A stretch of DNA of 32,000 bases from an uncultured bacterium (lineage in GTDB: Bacteria > GCA-001730085). The translations under genes and the position numbers were made by a program. The DNA lies in assembly GCA_964565945.1 (NCBI GenBank), contig CAZMGY010000019.1, positions 60,001 to 92,000 on the forward strand, in the 5' to 3' direction. Shown piece by piece: positions 15,301-21,300 of this stretch. A model generated the notes under the pieces. The model was given only the letters and a program-made list of their open reading frames with translations. It did no database searches and was not told the DNA's origin. Position 1 is the first letter of the stretch; each line of letters opens with the position of its first letter.

Positions 15301-18300
15301 ACCAAGATATTCAGCTGTTTCAAAAATATCGTCAACAAATTCTCAATGATTTGATTAATAACATGGAAAATAACTCAACAGCTGTGCATGATATGTTGCT
15401 TCATGGCGATCATTCGTATGGTTTTTTAACAGACTTGAAGCATTGGCAGGATATGCAGCAATTGTTTGAATATATGCATCGTAAACGTTTGCCTCAAAGC
15501 AATGCGATTCGTAAGAAAATTGAAATGTTTCACCAGTCAAGTTCTTCATACATTGCCTCAGACGTCAATCGAGTGCTCCAAGAGATGTTGAGGGATATTT
15601 CGACAGAACAGCTTATCGATTTTTTGGAACAAGAGGCCTCACGCTATTCCGAAGCACCTTTCATTTCTCTTACTCTTAAACAGACGTGCGAAAATCTTAA
15701 ATCAAAAAAATTTAAACCTGAAAATCAATCACATATTATGGCTGCTTTGTTAGATGAGTTGCTCAAGAAAGGTAAATTGCTTGTGGTGCAACAATTATTG
15801 GAAGGTTTGGAGGGTTTTTTCAATGTAGCGCTTGATGAAAATATGTTTAAAACGGAGCTTGAACGATATCAAAAAGAGATCAAACGCAGTATAAGTGCTA
15901 ATGGTATCGAGGACGATTTGTTTTCGCTCGGATCAAAAGAGCGTATGCTGTTGTTTATTGACAAAATGCTTAAAAAAAGTGACAACCGCTATACCTTTTT
16001 CACGCATCAAAACGCTTTGGATGCATCGGTTCAAAAATGGGGACAAAAGGCGTATGATCGCAAGGGTTTGTTGCAAAAGTTCATTCGGAAGACCGCCTTG
16101 GAGGAGCAGACTCATTCGGTCGATAGTTTGTTAGTAGCTATTAAGAATCAAATATCCACAGCGCCTGATTTCACTCCGTTAGAGAGTCTTTCCACAGATT
16201 TGGAAAATTACTACAAGCATTTTCGTAAATGGCGAAGGAATGACTATGATAAACGCAAAGCTATTTTGAAATGGATTTATCATTTGCGCGACAACATCGA
16301 AAAAACCTATATGCGTGGTTCGGTTTTAGATCAGTTAGCGGACGATTATGTGCAAAGTAAGGTGGCTGATGAATTGCTCAAATCTCAAAATATACAAAGT
16401 CCCAACTTGGTTCCACGGCATCATTGGCGTTTGAATCATGCAGATATTACCAATCTTTATGCTGAGACGGGTAGCGGGATTGAAGATTATTGGGCCAACT
16501 GCCTTAAGGATTACCATCATCGTTTTGAAAAATATAGCATCGAAAAAGGCTATCAGCATAAGTTCAAAAAACATATCGACTATATGTTTGATCTTAATAA
16601 GGATAAACAAGGAAAAATTCGTCGAGACAAAAACTCCTGGAGAAAGGGGCTTTTTTTTCTGGGAAAAATTGTTTTGGCGATTGGTTTTGCTTTTTTATTG
16701 GCCTCTTTTTTTGGTTTTACCACAGGATGGTTGTTAGCCCTTCATATCTTTTCTGTGATGTCTTTATGGTCGATTTTTGCGGGGATTCAAGGAAGCATTG
16801 TTTTTATTGCGATTATGGCTTCTGTGGGAGCTGTCTTAATTATGTCCGGAATTGTTATTATCGTGAAGCGTTACAATTACAATATCTCTGAGGAGAGGGT
16901 GAGCGTTAAAAAATCTTATAATTTGCCCATTGCGTTGTTCCTATTGGGAGCAATTGCGGTGGCGTTGCCTTTCTTTATTACGCCGCTTTTGTCGGTGATG
17001 TTGATTCCAGCTCTTGGTCCAGGAGTCTCGTTGGGGATTATGCTTGTGGCGGGTATTGCTGTTTTACTCGCCTATCAGATGAAGCTTAAACAAAAAAAAG
17101 GAGCGGGTATCCTGATGGGCTTTTTTATAATTGTGTCTCTGCTTACCTTTTCACCGCTTCTTTTTTTAGGCTTTATGTTTATTGTGTTTATGATTCGTTA
17201 TGGTGTCGACCAACTTGTTAAGCAACGATCTTTTTTCATTGGGGGTATAATTTTTTCTTCGGCCATAATTTTTATGTTTTCTTTGATGTTTGTGGTTGTT
17301 CCAGCAGTGGCGGTGACTTCTTCGATCATTGTGATAGGTTTTTATCAGGCTTTAGCTGGGATTGTTTTGGTTATCAGTTTGATTTACATGATATGGAGGG
17401 CGGTTGAGTTGCCCACTCATATCAACAAATCGAACAAACGGATCTTTAAAGATGCCAGGGCGATTAAAGTTCTCATGGATAATCCCGAAGCCAACTATCA
17501 ATTTGCTTCGGAAAGCATTTTTCCAGGCAAGTTAATAAATCGTGCGTATTTACGGAGAAACTTCGAAGATAAGCTTCGTCTTTTACGCAAACGTCTTTAC
17601 ATTCGTTACAGCACAGCTCAGGCAGCGCTTGATGGTCTTCAAGAATATATTACTAGTGAGCAAGAGTCTGACCCTAAAAAAAGAAAGGAGCTAAACTTTT
17701 TATTGAGTATCGTTAAGTTGGCCTTGTTAAGTCGAGATCGTTCGGGAGCCGAAATTTTATTTCGTAATTTGGATATGGAACATCGCTTGGATGCACCTCA
17801 AATATATGAACTCCTTGACGATAGAGGTAAGGGTGATTTAATGCGCAAGGTTGAACACCGTAAGAAAGTACGTTTTAGCTTAAGTGCGTACTTTCGTCGT
17901 TATCTTGAAGAGCACTCCGAAATAATTTATTTTGCGATGATTTTTGGGATTGCATTTTTTTTGACCATGGTCTTTAGCTCTTTAATTTTCTTTATTACGG
18001 GCACGATTGGAACTCAAATTGCGCAGATCGTTCTAACGTTTGTTTTGGCCCCCTTATTGTTTGCGCTTTTAACAACTAATGCTAGTGTGTACACGGATCG
18101 CTGGTTTAGCAAAATGTTACCTCCGCGCAACAATCCCGAGGCTGAAATGCCTTATGGGATTCGCTTTGCCAATGCGGTGAGTTTTACCCCTTATAACGTG
18201 GTCCAGGGTAATCAAAGGAAGTTTGACAAAGAATCATCTCCCGAAGAGCAAAAACGAGGGGAGTTTTATGGTTTTAACACGATGGATGAGTGGTTTAACA

Positions 18301-21300
18301 CACAGCAAAAAACGATGCGCAATAATCCCGAAGCGATGATTTTTGTCGAAAGTAATAGTGGTCGTACTAATGATGAATACCAGGTTTATGAGCTTATGCA
18401 GGTGATGCGTTTGGCCGATGCTTTTGGATGGGACAATATGTTTTACACGCATGTATATCATGGCTGGATTAAAAAAGCAGGTAAATATCAGGATAACATT
18501 GCCTATTTGAATGGGCAATTTTTGGATAATGAGCATTATGTTCAAGAAATGGGCTTACATGGAGGGCGGAGAGGCAAAACTAAAAAATCTTCTTTTGATC
18601 CAGAGTATCGTGTTCAAATGAAAATTGGAGGGGCAATTGATCCCCACTCGAAGGATCCTTTGGATATTCAGCGCAAAAAGTTTCGTGATGAGATGCAGCG
18701 CGAGTTCTTGACCGCATATGAGAGGTTTCAATCAACGCGAGATGTAAATATTTTGAAGACTTTGGCTAAGAAGTACATTACCGATAATATTGCCGATAAA
18801 CCTAGTCAGATGTATCGCAATAACGGGGTGGGCATGAACATTGTTTCGAGAGAAACAGAACGTCGCATGATTAGCCAAGATGGTCGAATTGGCGTGGTTT
18901 ATTTGAACGGTTTTGATGATGATAACTTATTGCCGCTGAATTTGCACCGTAATATTTTTGCACCGTCCCACACGCGTTATATGCGTAAAGTTGGAAATCA
19001 GCAACCACGGACTTTTATTAGTAACGATAGCGACTCGGTGTTTGCTGCTTCAACCCGCTATGTGCACGACATGTTGCAGTTTACCCAGCAATCGATGTAT
19101 CGCAACTTTAATGCCTTTTCGGATTATGGTAAGGGTTCGAAAATTATTCCTTTCTGGTATCTAGAGATTGGCTCATCGCATAAAATGCGCCAAGACACTT
19201 TGAGTCACGATACGCAAGAAGCTCCTGGGTGGTTTATGCATTATCGACTGCACAATATGGGCTTTTCGATGTTTAACGCCAGTATTGGTGTAGGTGAAGG
19301 AACGGTTCCTAACTACCTTGCTGGTTCGATTCGAACAGGACGTTGGCTGTTTGGAACAATGCAGGATATGCGCAACTTGGATGAACCTGGTTCGACACGC
19401 CAGAAGTGGATCAGCTTTTTGGCGATTAAGGGTTACTGGAGTGAGTTTCTCTTTTTTATCTATCTTGTGTTTGGATTTATAATTGTTCTTGTGGACGTAT
19501 TGTTCTTGTCGTCGACTGTTTTCTTTCCAGCTCTTATCTTGATTGCCATTTTTATGATTTCGATGTATTTGATTGTTTTTGCATCCAAATTCAAAGACCT
19601 TTCGTTGTTGCCAGGTGGTAAGAAGAAAAACCTTCATATGTCCTGGGAAGAAACCAAAATGTCAACGGCGGTTTATTTGAATAATCCTATGACTGTGTCG
19701 CGTTATGATGTGTGGCAAATGGATTCGATGGTGCAGCAGTCCGCCACAGGTATTCCTGAGACGCCAGGTTGGACACCTTCGGCGGTGACTGAAGAAATGA
19801 CGAAGTCACCAACGATTAAGCAAACTTACTTGGAGATGCATTGGCAGATTAAATTAGGCCTGATTGCGATTTTTACCTTGCTTTTTGGAGTTCTTTTCGT
19901 GCCTGCCTCGGGGCTCGTGTGGGCAACGGTGTTGACTTACTTTTTTTGGGCGTTTCCGCTGTATTTTTCTTTGATTTTTGGTTGGTACATCGCCTGGCAA
20001 TCGGGAAAAGATCGTGGGGCTTTTGTTCGAGCTTATGAGAAAGCTATTCAAGAAAGTCCTCGTGATTTTGAGTTAGGGAAAGTCAGTAGCTCTGTGGTTG
20101 ATCGCGCCTTTGAAGGGGCTTGGCAGCAAAGTAAGTGGAACGAATTTTCGAACTCTGTTATGTGGAGTCGTGGTATTTATGATCGTTATGGTGAACGCAT
20201 TCGTGATATACGTCTTTTTTTGGATACGCTCGAAATTTCGGATCCTAAAAAGAGACAGGTAGAGCAGGAGCGTATTCGGCGTAAAATTTGCTCGCGAGCT
20301 GCTGATAAAATGAATGAAAAAACATTGAAGTTTTGGAGAGTGATTGGAGTGATGTTACTGCTTGCAACCTTGTTTTGCCTGATTCAAGCGCTTATGTTAA
20401 CTGGTTTTGGTGTTCTAGGATCCGCGACTATTCCTATTTTAGGTACGATGGGATCTTTGGGACTACTTATGTTAGTGACTGGATATCTGGCCAAAAAGTC
20501 ATGGACAAACCGCTTCAATCCACGTTCGCACTTTAAAAACTCTCCTAAATTATCTGAGGACATTGCACCAACGGGTTGGGCAACATTGGCCCAATGGATT
20601 ATGGTGTTGGCGGGAGCGGTTTTGCTGACCCTGGGTCTTATATCGGTTATTTTTCCCCTAGGTTGGTTGAGTGGTTTTATGGTACCTTTTTCCATTATTG
20701 TGGGAGGCATTATTTTGATTGTTACTTTAGTGGGGAGTAAGAGGATTGAAGCTGAGCGTGATACGGTGACTATCTTTTCTAAGAAGGGCGATAAATTATT
20801 GATTGCCGTGAGGACTTTTCGAGAGCAGATGAAGGAAAAGCTTTGGAATTCACGTAATACGCCTGCGTGTAAGCGGGAACGTGAATTATTATTGAAGGAA
20901 TTTGCTCATTACGATAAAGAACGCTATGAAAAAATATCCAAAGAGGCTTTTTATCAGATGTTTTCCGATATATCTAAGTCTCTTTCAGAGGAAGAGGTAA
21001 AGCCTTTTGTTCATGGAACCGTTTTGGATGAAAAGCATAGCGAAAAAACGGATTTTGCGTGGCAATGGGAGATTTTAAATCGAGATAGTGTTGGCCCTGT
21101 GTATGTGTGGCACGAAATGAATCGTATTGTCGAGCAAGGTGTTGATCACTTGCAGAAACTTTTTGAGAAAGATAAAAATAATCCTTTAATCAAAGATTTG
21201 GAAGAAAGAAGCTTTAGCGATATTTTAGCTGATTTAGAGCAAAAAAGAGCTCCTAACCCAGCTCTTACCTTGACTTCTGGAGAAATGTTGCAGTTTGAAC

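What the first reader, a model, noticed from the sequence alone, without database searches (positions are those of the whole stretch)
17919..19997. Embedded OpgH/BcsA-like processive GT2 core (helices, GT domain, helices) in the middle of the giant protein
Between helix pair 17919-18074 and bundles 19407-19997, the protein carries the motifs of membrane-integrated family-2 synthases in the canonical order. VESNS compares with E. coli OpgH ILSDS. KKAGK compares with BcsA HAKAGN and OpgH KRKSGN. FISNDSDSV compares with the OpgH DxD motif VLDADSV. GKGS...LEIGSS compares with BcsA FFCGS...LDE.GGF. TLSHDTQEA compares with OpgH ILSHDFVEA, the equivalent of the TED catalytic base. IRTGRWLFGTMQ compares with BcsA QQRGRWATGMMQ and OpgH RDRRWCHGN, the QxxRW motif. 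The next helix, KWISFLAIKGYWSEFLFF, parallels OpgH HRAVFLTGVMSYLSAPLWF. Six collinear motifs plus flanking helices are unlikely to be coincidence. This suggests a polymerising and translocating glycosyltransferase; the product is unknown, with a glucan the first guess given the OpgH-like SHD. The reference sequences are quoted from memory.
Basis: partly seen in the sequence, partly recalled or inferred. Interest (0 to 1): 0.8.

Follow-up and report, generated by a model that had tools for sequence, protein, structure and literature searches.

The report
Glucan-synthase module inside a giant protein
The middle of this 3,871-residue membrane protein is a real but extremely diverged relative of the bacterial enzymes OpgH and Cgs that build beta-1,2-glucans, so an obscure invertebrate-associated bacterium probably makes a sugar polymer of the kind other bacteria use to interact with hosts.

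Summary
The finding holds, with corrections. Residues 1866-2558 of the 3,871-aa ORF (12324-23939, +) match, end to end, stand-alone ~625-aa membrane glycosyltransferases. [quoted passage not shown] No Pfam model or single-sequence PDB search sees this; bridging sequences do. The segment hits the stand-alone proteins at E~2e-7 in 1.8 billion sequences. The joint profile hits only Cgs in the PDB (E=2.6e-17) and aligns to E. coli OpgH at 98.8% probability. Fourteen motif residues are invariant at 17-21% identity between the two groups: D2198/D2200, Q2227, N2234, GKG 2269-71, H2295-D2296, E2299, E2325, R2340-W2341, G2344. The first UDP-binding Asp is missing in the giant clade. Three of five stand-alone relatives sit next to a GH144 beta-1,2-glucanase gene, and a 7,976-aa relative has one fused, so beta-1,2-glucan is the best guess. 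Activity, product and translocation are inferred. AlphaFold models were too poor for the structural test. The rest of the giant matches nothing. The only full-length orthologue found is in a PVC-superphylum symbiont of a bryozoan. This is a new variant of a known kind.

The parts
12324..23939 (+). Giant ORF of 3,871 aa with several clusters of transmembrane helices. Only the central part has a recognisable relative.
   Evidence: ORF list and translation. No Pfam hit at E<0.3. Hydropathy clusters. Exact protein present in an NCBI contig and Logan assemblies. Collinear 3,594-aa orthologue P0013. Whole-length profile gives nothing in the PDB outside the GT region.
17913..19997 (+). Complete synthase module (aa 1864-2558): TM hairpin, cytoplasmic GT domain, C-terminal helix bundle. 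It matches a whole stand-alone enzyme end to end.
   Evidence: Aligns from first to last residue with the 623-630-aa proteins P0018/19/21/22/23. It is the best-conserved part of the giant against its orthologue: 43-56% identity versus 10-40% elsewhere. None of the 10 strain-level substitutions falls here.
17913..18089 (+). N-terminal transmembrane hairpin (aa 1864-1922).
   Evidence: Hydropathy. Aligns with the TM helices of the stand-alone proteins and with Cgs 393-470.
18330..18362 (+). Strand equivalent to OpgH 'ILSD' and Cgs D527 (aa 2003-2013, AMIFVESNSG). The UDP-binding Asp is absent.
   Evidence: MAFFT and hhalign place G2013 (or N2011 with a one-residue shift) at the Asp position. The other giants have P, S/T or Q/A there; the stand-alone relatives keep S-D, except P0022 (S-G).
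18465..18485 (+). W-x-x-K-x-G motif (aa 2048-2054, WIKKAGK), equivalent to OpgH KRKSGN and BcsA HAKAGN.
   Evidence: W2048, K2051 and G2053 are nearly invariant in A4. Aligned to OpgH 'vkrksgn'.
18501..18878 (+). Insertion of about 125 aa (aa ~2060-2185) specific to the giant clade, between the K-x-G motif and the DxD. Predicted to be helical.
   Evidence: Gapped in all five stand-alone relatives and in OpgH. Helices predicted by AF2 with locally higher pLDDT.
18915..18923 (+). True DxD motif, D2198-D2199-D2200.
   Evidence: D2198 and D2200 are invariant in all 10 aligned sequences. They align to Cgs D624/D626 (8rf0 numbering; PMC10901819) and to OpgH LDADS.
19002..19025 (+). Q-x-P...N motif (aa 2227-2234, QPRTFISN).
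   Evidence: Q2227 and N2234 are invariant. Aligned to Cgs 'LLQPRV'. D2235 and D2237 are not conserved.
19128..19136 (+). G-K-G motif (aa 2269-2271), equivalent to Cgs FTGKG and BcsA FFCGS.
   Evidence: Invariant in A4. Aligned to Cgs GKG.
19203..19220 (+). S-H-D-x-x-E motif (aa 2294-2299). D2296 is the predicted catalytic base.
   Evidence: H2295, D2296 and E2299 are invariant. D2296 aligns with the Cgs catalytic base D739 (PMC10901819) and with OpgH LSHDFVEA.
19296..19298 (+). Invariant E2325 (GVGEGTVPNY).
   Evidence: Invariant in A4. Aligned to OpgH 'syEelppN' and to Cgs 'lvEdfptrY'.
19341..19355 (+). R-W-x-x-G motif (aa 2340-2344), the RW of QxxRW.
   Evidence: R2340, W2341 and G2344 are invariant. 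Aligned to Cgs R773-W774 and to OpgH RRWCHG.
19404..19997 (+). Interface helix plus C-terminal transmembrane bundle (aa 2361-2558), with conserved E2443, L2452, W2483, S2549 and G2553.
   Evidence: Hydropathy. hhalign aligns it with OpgH residues ~505-705. BLASTP to OpgH gives a pairwise E = 0.002.
10046..12145 (+). Upstream 699-aa protein with an apparent N-terminal signal-like stretch and a double hydrophobic segment (read by eye). It is a conserved neighbour of the giant gene; function unknown.
   Evidence: No Pfam hit. 30% identity over 500 aa to the 808-aa protein directly upstream of the orthologous giant in the Bugula-associated PVC bacterium.

Best explanation
Residues ~1864-2558 of the giant protein are a complete, deeply diverged membrane-integrated glycosyltransferase module of the OpgH/Cgs ('SHD') type, fused into a much larger polytopic protein.

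By homology, the soluble GT-A-like domain (aa ~1925-2360) should sit on the cytoplasmic face between a TM hairpin and a C-terminal helix bundle. It should bind a UDP-sugar through D2198/D2200 and K2051. It should use D2296 as catalytic base and R2340-W2341 to hold the growing chain, adding sugars one at a time to a polymer.

The most likely donor and product are UDP-glucose and a beta-1,2-linked glucan. The flanking helices would either thread the polymer across the membrane (OpgH-like) or hand it to other parts of the protein (Cgs-like).

Shown: the homology, the module boundaries, the conservation of catalytic motifs, and the beta-1,2-glucan gene context of relatives. Inferred: activity, donor, linkage, processivity, topology and translocation.
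For: 1. An exhaustive phmmer search of the segment finds 9 proteins in 1.84 billion. They include stand-alone 626-630-aa proteins at E = 2e-7 and 7e-7, each matched in two collinear stretches.
2. Those stand-alone proteins hit MdoH/OpgH NCBIfam models at E~2e-13 and hit only Cgs in the PDB, at E = 7e-7.
3. The joint 10-sequence profile hits only Cgs in the PDB (E = 2.6e-17, two collinear stretches). It aligns to E. coli OpgH with 98.8% probability and E = 9e-17 over 434 columns.
4. The segment alone has MdoH as its single NCBIfam hit (E = 0.002) and a pairwise BLASTP E = 0.002 to OpgH.
5. The invariant columns include all the catalytic motif residues apart from the first Asp, at 17-21% overall identity. 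They map onto Cgs D624/D626, D739 and R773 (PMC10901819).
6. The module is the best-conserved part of the giant.
7. Three of five stand-alone relatives are followed directly by a GH144 gene. The one tested against the PDB matches endo-beta-1,2-glucanase 5gzh at E = 1e-45.
8. A 7,976-aa relative carries a PF10091 (GH144-family) domain and sits next to a GH94 protein.
Against: - No Pfam GT model matches the window protein, and the best in any relative is E = 0.2.
- A profile of the giants alone is not significant against the PDB (BcsA E~0.9) or against OpgH (E = 0.002, 13% probability). The link therefore rests on bridging sequences.
- The first UDP-coordinating Asp (Cgs D527, BcsA D179) is missing in every giant.
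- A ~125-aa insertion splits the GT domain.
- AlphaFold models were of low confidence (pLDDT 41 and 46), and Foldseek gave noise, so clustering of the motif residues in a pocket is untested.
- No GH144, GH189 or GH94 domain was detected in the giant, and none is in the window.
- The nearby sugar-nucleotide genes make UDP-GlcNAc, not UDP-Glc.
Confidence: 0.62

Rival explanations
1. The module is an active membrane glycosyltransferase, but its donor, linkage or acceptor differs from OpgH and Cgs. It might make another beta-glycan or a GlcNAc-containing polymer, or glycosylate a lipid or the protein itself.
For: The uracil/ribose-binding Asp is lost, and the giant clade has a ~125-aa insertion in the nucleotide-binding half. 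Identity to OpgH and Cgs is only about 19%. The GH144 context was seen only for distant relatives, not for the giants (versus 36, 68). An alternative GlmU-GlmM-GlmS cluster for UDP-GlcNAc lies 3.6 kb upstream.
Against: The S-H-D-x-x-E and G-K-G motifs match the two beta-1,2-glucan synthases; E. coli BcsA has TED and CGS at the aligned positions. MdoH/OpgH is the only NCBIfam family hit and Cgs the only PDB hit. The Glm genes are housekeeping genes and are not next to the giant in the orthologous locus.
Confidence: 0.22
2. The module is a catalytically dead relic that now serves a structural, scaffolding or channel role within the giant membrane protein.
For: The first UDP-binding Asp is missing in all giants. 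No curated GT model recognises the domain. The rest of the protein has no enzymatic signature.
Against: The DxD, K-x-G, Q-x-P, G-K-G, H-D..E and R-W residues are invariant across sequences only 17-21% identical. That is hard to explain without catalysis. The module is the slowest-evolving part of a fast-evolving protein.
Confidence: 0.13
3. The motif resemblance is coincidental, in a low-complexity, helix-rich membrane protein.
For: Single-sequence searches against Pfam and the PDB are negative, and the Foldseek hits are noise.
Against: E-values of 2e-7 in a library of 1.8 billion proteins, 2.6e-17 against the PDB, and 98.8% hhalign probability. Matches are collinear over more than 400 columns, including the soluble domain.
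Confidence: 0.03

Closest known systems
OpgH / MdoH (osmoregulated periplasmic glucan glucosyltransferase, GT2), E. coli b1049
   Same: Same architecture: TM helices, GT domain, multi-helix bundle. Collinear motifs: K-x-G, DxD, Q..P, LSHD..E and RW..G, followed by a helix. hhalign gives 98.8% probability over OpgH 237-705. It is the only NCBIfam family hit by the segment.
   Different: About 19% identity. The NCBIfam score is 16.6 bits against equivalog cut-offs of 328-1037. The LSD Asp is missing. A ~125-aa and a ~25-aa insertion are present. The module is embedded in a 3,871-aa protein rather than an ~850-aa one. No opgG/opgD partner is in the window.
[quoted passage not shown]
   Same: It is the only solved structure hit by the family profile (E = 2.6e-17). 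DxD, QP, GKG, SHD and RW align residue for residue with Cgs D624/D626, D739 and R773. Both are very large multi-domain membrane proteins with the GT docked under TM helices.
   Different: No detectable GH189 cyclase or GH94 phosphorylase domain. The primer tyrosine Y694 aligns to a Leu. D527 is not conserved. There are many more TM helices than the six of Cgs and an N-terminal hydrophobic segment that looks like a signal peptide by eye, so some domains may lie outside the cytoplasm.
Uncharacterised stand-alone 'membrane glycosyltransferase' + GH144 gene pairs (P0018, P0019, P0021, P0022, P0023)
   Same: These are the nearest recognisable relatives of the module. They align end to end with aa 1866-2558 and share all invariant residues.
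   Different: 17-21% identity. They are about 625 aa and free-standing. They keep the S-D Asp (P0022 excepted) and lack the insertions. Three of five are followed by a GH144 beta-1,2-glucanase-family gene.
Bacterial cellulose synthase BcsA (GT2; PDB 7lby, 4hg6)
   Same: The same general plan of a membrane-integrated processive synthase. Weak profile matches around the RW motif and the following helices.
   Different: Much weaker: 55% hhalign probability, and E = 1.7e-3 with A1 only. BcsA has TED and FFCGS in place of SHD and GKG. No PilZ domain is present here.

Membership tests
Membrane-integrated processive GT2-type synthases (BcsA/OpgH/Cgs-GT84 fold class) | TM helices, then a cytoplasmic GT-A domain, then interface and TM helices in one chain | tested here: met
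   Hydropathy. End-to-end alignment with stand-alone relatives and with OpgH 237-705.
Membrane-integrated processive GT2-type synthases (BcsA/OpgH/Cgs-GT84 fold class) | DxD motif coordinating the metal and UDP diphosphate | tested here: met
D2198/D2200 are invariant and align to Cgs D624/D626.
Membrane-integrated processive GT2-type synthases (BcsA/OpgH/Cgs-GT84 fold class) | First conserved Asp binding UDP (BcsA D179, Cgs D527) | tested here: not met
   The window has G2013 or N2011 at this position. The other giants have P, S/T or Q/A.
Membrane-integrated processive GT2-type synthases (BcsA/OpgH/Cgs-GT84 fold class) | Catalytic base Asp in the TED/SHD motif | tested here: met
   D2296 is invariant and aligns to Cgs D739 and to OpgH SHD.
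Membrane-integrated processive GT2-type synthases (BcsA/OpgH/Cgs-GT84 fold class) | Q(Q/R)xRW motif | tested here: met
   R2340-W2341 are invariant and align to Cgs R773-W774. The leading Q is absent (the window reads IRTGRW), as it also is in the aligned OpgH sequence (RDRRW).
Membrane-integrated processive GT2-type synthases (BcsA/OpgH/Cgs-GT84 fold class) | GT-A fold with the motif residues clustered in one pocket beneath a TM channel | tested here: inconclusive
   AF2 gave pLDDT 41 (single sequence) and 46 (7-sequence alignment). Foldseek hits were all E>0.8.
Pfam GT2 families (Glyco_trans_2_3, Glyco_tranf_2, Glycos_transf_2) | Score above the Pfam gathering threshold | tested here: not met
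   No hit for the giant or for the segment. The best in any relative is P0018 to Glyco_trans_2_3 at E = 0.2.
OpgH/MdoH equivalog (NCBIfam PRK05454 models) | Score above the curated equivalog cut-off | tested here: not met
   16.6 bits against a cut-off of 829 bits. This is homology, not orthology.
[quoted passage not shown] | GT84 domain plus GH189 cyclase plus GH94 phosphorylase in one protein | tested here: not met
   Only the GT part is detectable. hhalign to GH144 and GH94 proteins gave <1% probability, and the whole-protein profile against the PDB was empty.
[quoted passage not shown] | Tyrosine-linked glucan primer (Y694) | tested here: not met
   Y694 aligns to L2249 in 'HDMLQFT'. Alignment in this loop is uncertain.
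beta-1,2-glucan synthases in general | UDP-glucose-dependent synthesis of a beta-1,2-glucan | not testable with these tools
   Supported only indirectly: the nearest homologues are OpgH and Cgs, and relatives are linked to GH144 or GH94 genes.

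The most novel reading that the evidence does not exclude
The giant protein is a previously unseen kind of single-chain glucan machine. 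An OpgH/Cgs-type synthase core is welded to ~3,200 residues of unrelated membrane and helical domains, which would prime, process, anchor or export a beta-1,2-glucan. It occurs in a small-genome, invertebrate-associated PVC-superphylum lineage, where such a glucan could be the host-interaction factor, as cyclic glucans are for Brucella and Agrobacterium (PMC10901819). The 7,976-aa relative with a fused GH144-family domain, and the stand-alone GT+GH144 pairs, would then be sister solutions from an unrecognised, Pfam-invisible branch of beta-1,2-glucan biosynthesis.
Probability: 0.3. Interest if true: 0.75.

Novelty: new variant of a known kind. Interest (0 to 1): 0.6.

Why it matters
Beta-1,2-glucans (OPGs and cyclic glucans) serve as osmoprotectants and as symbiosis or virulence factors, and OpgH and Cgs are the synthases considered here.

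This finding adds a third, very divergent branch that current Pfam and NCBIfam models miss. It comes in two forms:
- Stand-alone enzymes paired with GH144 genes.
- Modules buried in giant proteins of 3,600 to about 8,000 residues.

It gives a first functional handle on an 11.6-kb gene that takes up about 0.6% of a ~1.9-Mb genome in a poorly known PVC lineage from a marine invertebrate. It also corrects which residues should be mutated: D2198, D2200 and D2296.

It shows as well that the invariant core of this synthase class can do without the first UDP-binding Asp, which is a testable point about the mechanism.

Tried and rejected
**Searches that found nothing**
- Pfam on the whole giant, on the segment and on a sub-segment: nothing relevant.
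- phmmer of the segment and of the whole giant against the PDB: nothing.
- Word-indexed homologue search with the segment and with alignment A1: nothing. Only the exhaustive search and a search with P0018 produced relatives.
- Both metagenome-contig scans found nothing.
- Rfam and tRNA scans of the window: empty.
- A literature search for the accessions: nothing.

**Structure route**
- AlphaFold on the single sequence gave pLDDT 41, and with 7 sequences pLDDT 46 and pTM 0.40. Foldseek against the PDB gave only noise. The structural test is therefore unresolved, not negative.

**Weak or negative comparisons**
- A giants-only profile against the PDB and against OpgH was not significant on its own.
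- A search for GH144, GH94 or other P0020-like domains elsewhere in the giant by hhalign was negative.
- There are no convincing internal repeats.
- A whole-protein profile against the PDB was negative.

**Ideas rejected**
- A role for the upstream GlmU/GlmM/GlmS genes as dedicated donor supply, because they are not syntenic in the orthologous locus.
- The antisense ORF 19173-19637 as a gene. It lies inside the best-conserved coding stretch of the + strand; this is a judgement, not a test.

Full report
**Setting.** The window carries twelve large ORFs, all on the + strand, with strongly positive GC skew. In order they are:
- FabF-like, UvrC and ribosomal protein S1;
- an alternative GlmU (TIGR03991), GlmM and GlmS;
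- TyrRS;
- an unknown 699-aa protein;
- a 3,871-aa ORF (12324-23939);
- IMPDH, GuaA and DnaE.

The giant ORF has no Pfam hit at E<0.3. It is not an assembly artefact. The identical protein is on record from an NCBI contig of 133 kb. Six near-identical variants (3-5 substitutions each) are on record from Logan assemblies.

**The observation.** I fetched opgH and bcsA from the K-12 genome. Pairwise BLASTP aligns window LSHDTQEA...GRWLFG...helix with OpgH LSHDFVEA...RRWCHG...helix, with 26% identity over 155 residues and a pairwise E of 0.002.

**Direct searches fail.** The following gave nothing:
- Pfam on the segment;
- phmmer against the PDB;
- the word-indexed homologue search;
- pattern scans of genome and metagenome contigs.

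**Bridging sequences rescue it.** An exhaustive phmmer search of aa 1866-2558 against 1.84 billion cluster representatives found nine proteins:
- The window protein's own cluster.
- A 3,594-aa orthologue, P0013, at 47% identity.
- Three contig-truncated fragments of similar giants (P0014, P0015, P0016) and a 114-aa fragment (P0017).
- A 7,976-aa protein, P0020.
- Two free-standing proteins of 630 and 626 aa (P0018, P0019), at E = 2e-7 and 7e-7. Each matched in two collinear stretches that cover both halves of the soluble domain.

A further search with P0018 added three more free-standing members, P0021-P0023. JGI names two of the family 'membrane glycosyltransferase'.

These ~625-aa proteins align with the window segment from their first to their last residue.

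**Link to known enzymes.**
- P0018 and P0019 hit several NCBIfam MdoH/OpgH models at E~2e-13, far below the equivalog cut-offs.
- The seven-sequence profile A1 ranks Cgs (E = 3.9e-4) and then BcsA (E = 1.7e-3) at the top of the PDB.
- A1 aligns to E. coli OpgH at 97.1% probability and to BcsA at 55%.
- The ten-sequence profile A4 hits only Cgs, at E = 2.6e-17 and in two collinear stretches.
- A4 aligns to OpgH 237-705 at 98.8% probability and E = 9e-17 over 434 columns.
- The window segment alone has MdoH as its single NCBIfam hit (E = 0.002). Up to seven of the ten family members hit MdoH models.

There is a caveat. A profile of the giants alone is not significant against the PDB or OpgH. The argument is transitive, although each link is significant in a very large database.

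**Anatomy and corrections.** Across ten sequences only 17-21% identical between giants and stand-alones, 20 columns are invariant. Fourteen of them lie in the GT-domain motifs:
- D2198 and D2200;
- Q2227 and N2234;
- G2269, K2270 and G2271;
- H2295, D2296 and E2299;
- E2325;
- R2340, W2341 and G2344.

The other six lie in the C-terminal helix region. W2048, K2051 and G2053 are nearly invariant.

I used the Cgs alignment (8rf0 numbering) together with the residue roles given in the Cgs cryo-EM paper (PMC10901819). On that basis:
- D2198/D2200 correspond to the active-site pair D624/D626; the paper gives D624 as UDP-coordinating.
- D2296 corresponds to the catalytic base D739.
- R2340-W2341 correspond to R773-W774.

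That stretch is the tail of the Q-x-P...N motif, and its two Asp residues are not conserved.

In the other giants it is P, S/T or Q/A. The stand-alone relatives, apart from P0022, keep S-D.

The giants also carry a ~125-aa helical insertion between the K-x-G motif and the DxD. The Cgs primer tyrosine Y694 aligns to a leucine, though alignment in that loop is uncertain.

**Structure test.** AlphaFold2 on the single sequence gave pLDDT 41. With the seven-sequence alignment it gave pLDDT 46 and pTM 0.40. The secondary structure of the N-terminal half alternates strands and helices, as a GT-A domain would. The motif-rich half is below pLDDT 50. Foldseek against the PDB returned only noise, with best E = 0.88. 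The pocket-clustering test is unresolved.

**What the product might be.** The two known homologues, OpgH and Cgs, are both linked to glucan synthesis: NCBIfam names MdoH a glucans-biosynthesis glucosyltransferase, and Cgs makes beta-1,2-glucan from UDP-glucose (PMC10901819). That OpgH also makes a beta-1,2 backbone from UDP-glucose is established knowledge, not tested here. Both have S-H-D where E. coli BcsA has TED.

Gene context of the distant relatives points the same way:
- P0019, P0021 and P0023 are each followed within a few bases by a PF10091 gene.
- The P0019 neighbour matches the GH144 endo-beta-1,2-glucanases 5gzh and 8xul (XCC2207) at E = 1e-45 to 1e-61.
- GH144 enzymes, including XcSGL, are beta-1,2-glucanases (PMC12102758).
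- P0020 has a HAD domain and a PF10091 (GH144-family) domain fused downstream of its GT remnant, and it follows a GH94 protein of more than 2,000 aa.
- P0022 lies divergent to a glucokinase-PGI-6PGD-G6PD operon.

For the giants themselves there is no such context. I found no GH144, GH189 or GH94 similarity in the rest of the protein. The upstream Glm genes make UDP-GlcNAc, and they are not syntenic in the orthologue. Beta-1,2-glucan is therefore the best guess, at roughly even odds given activity, and is not a result.

**The rest of the protein and the organism.** The orthologue P0013 lies in contig MDLB01000103.1 of 'PVC group bacterium (ex Bugula neritina AB1)'. It has the same local order: unknown 808-aa protein, giant, two small ORFs, IMPDH, GuaA, DnaE.

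I take this record to be bin AB1_div of Miller et al. 2016. The identification is inferred from the PVC placement, the Bugula source and the bin's 108 contigs; the paper does not give the accession. AB1_div is a 1.91-Mb, 34.7% GC genome assigned to candidate division NPL-UPA2 in the PVC superphylum, most abundant in bryozoan ovicells (PMC5041132).

Housekeeping proteins of the two organisms are 65-77% identical. The giant is only 10-56% identical, with the maximum across aa ~1800-2600. Conservation extends to about aa 2800, past the stand-alone-equivalent unit. Among seven strain variants, none of the ten variable residues lies in the module, against 1.8 expected, which is not significant. No convincing internal repeats were found.

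The other ~3,200 residues are several clusters of TM helices plus long helical soluble regions, and they have no recognisable relative. The number of helices per cluster, and hence the sidedness of the other domains, could not be settled with the tools at hand.

**Verdict.** It is a complete, very divergent OpgH/Cgs-type membrane glycosyltransferase module inside a giant protein. It is not an OpgH orthologue, not a Cgs, and not a member of any current Pfam GT family by score. It works like them as far as conserved residues can tell.

My estimates are:
- about 0.95 for homology;
- about 0.75-0.8 for retained catalysis;
- about 0.45-0.5 for beta-1,2-glucan as the product.

Translocation versus a cytoplasmic hand-off remains open.

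Noticed in passing
window 10046-12145 (+); L010 1039-3465: A 699-aa protein with what looks by eye like an N-terminal signal sequence and a double hydrophobic segment (aa ~82-145). It has no Pfam or NCBIfam family. It is conserved directly upstream of the giant gene in the Bugula-associated PVC bacterium (30% identity over 500 aa), so it may be a functional partner of the giant.
   Followed up: partly
L015 151-3360; L018 327-3514; L017 849-3914: There is an unrecognised two-gene module: a ~625-aa OpgH/Cgs-like membrane glycosyltransferase with no significant Pfam hit, followed directly by a GH144 (PF10091) beta-1,2-glucanase-family gene. It was seen in three unrelated metagenome contigs and could be a split, Cgs-like beta-1,2-glucan system.
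   Followed up: partly
L014 6001-29931 and neighbours: A 7,976-aa protein (P0020) carries the C-terminal half of the same GT motif set (YGKG, LSHDYFEA, RW) at aa ~5040-5200, with a hydrophobic insertion. Downstream in the same protein are a HAD hydrolase and a GH144-family domain. Its neighbours are a GH94 protein of >2,062 aa, a 1,052-aa unknown and a ROK-domain protein of >2,900 aa, which makes a cluster of giant proteins with a beta-1,2-glucan signature.
   Followed up: partly
window 4316-8690 (+): An alternative bacterial GlmU (TIGR03991, E = 1e-84), GlmM and GlmS lie in a row. This UDP-GlcNAc supply cluster sits 3.6 kb upstream of the giant gene and is not syntenic with the giant in the related genome.
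   Followed up: partly
window 23940-24833: This is an unusually long (~900 nt) gap between the giant gene and guaB. It holds two small ORFs: 24253-24573 (106 aa, with an N-terminus that looks like a signal peptide by eye) and 24640-24822 (60 aa, very basic). Two small ORFs (63 and 140 aa) occupy the same place in the orthologous locus. No Rfam family or tRNA was found.
   Followed up: partly
window 1-32000: All twelve large genes are on the + strand, and GC skew is positive in every 1-kb window (0.12-0.29). This suggests a strongly strand-biased genome and a window on the leading strand.
   Followed up: no
window 19173-19637 (-): A 154-aa antisense ORF lies inside the GT-coding stretch. It overlaps the best-conserved part of the + strand gene and is probably spurious.
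   Followed up: no
window 20300-20750 (aa ~2660-2810 of the giant): Conservation among the giants continues ~250 residues past the stand-alone-equivalent module, into a further four-helix hydrophobic cluster (invariant residues up to G2794). This cluster shows weak profile similarity to the clusters at aa 527-608 and 1446-1513 (41% and 13% hhalign probability). The cause may be compositional or an old duplication.
   Followed up: partly
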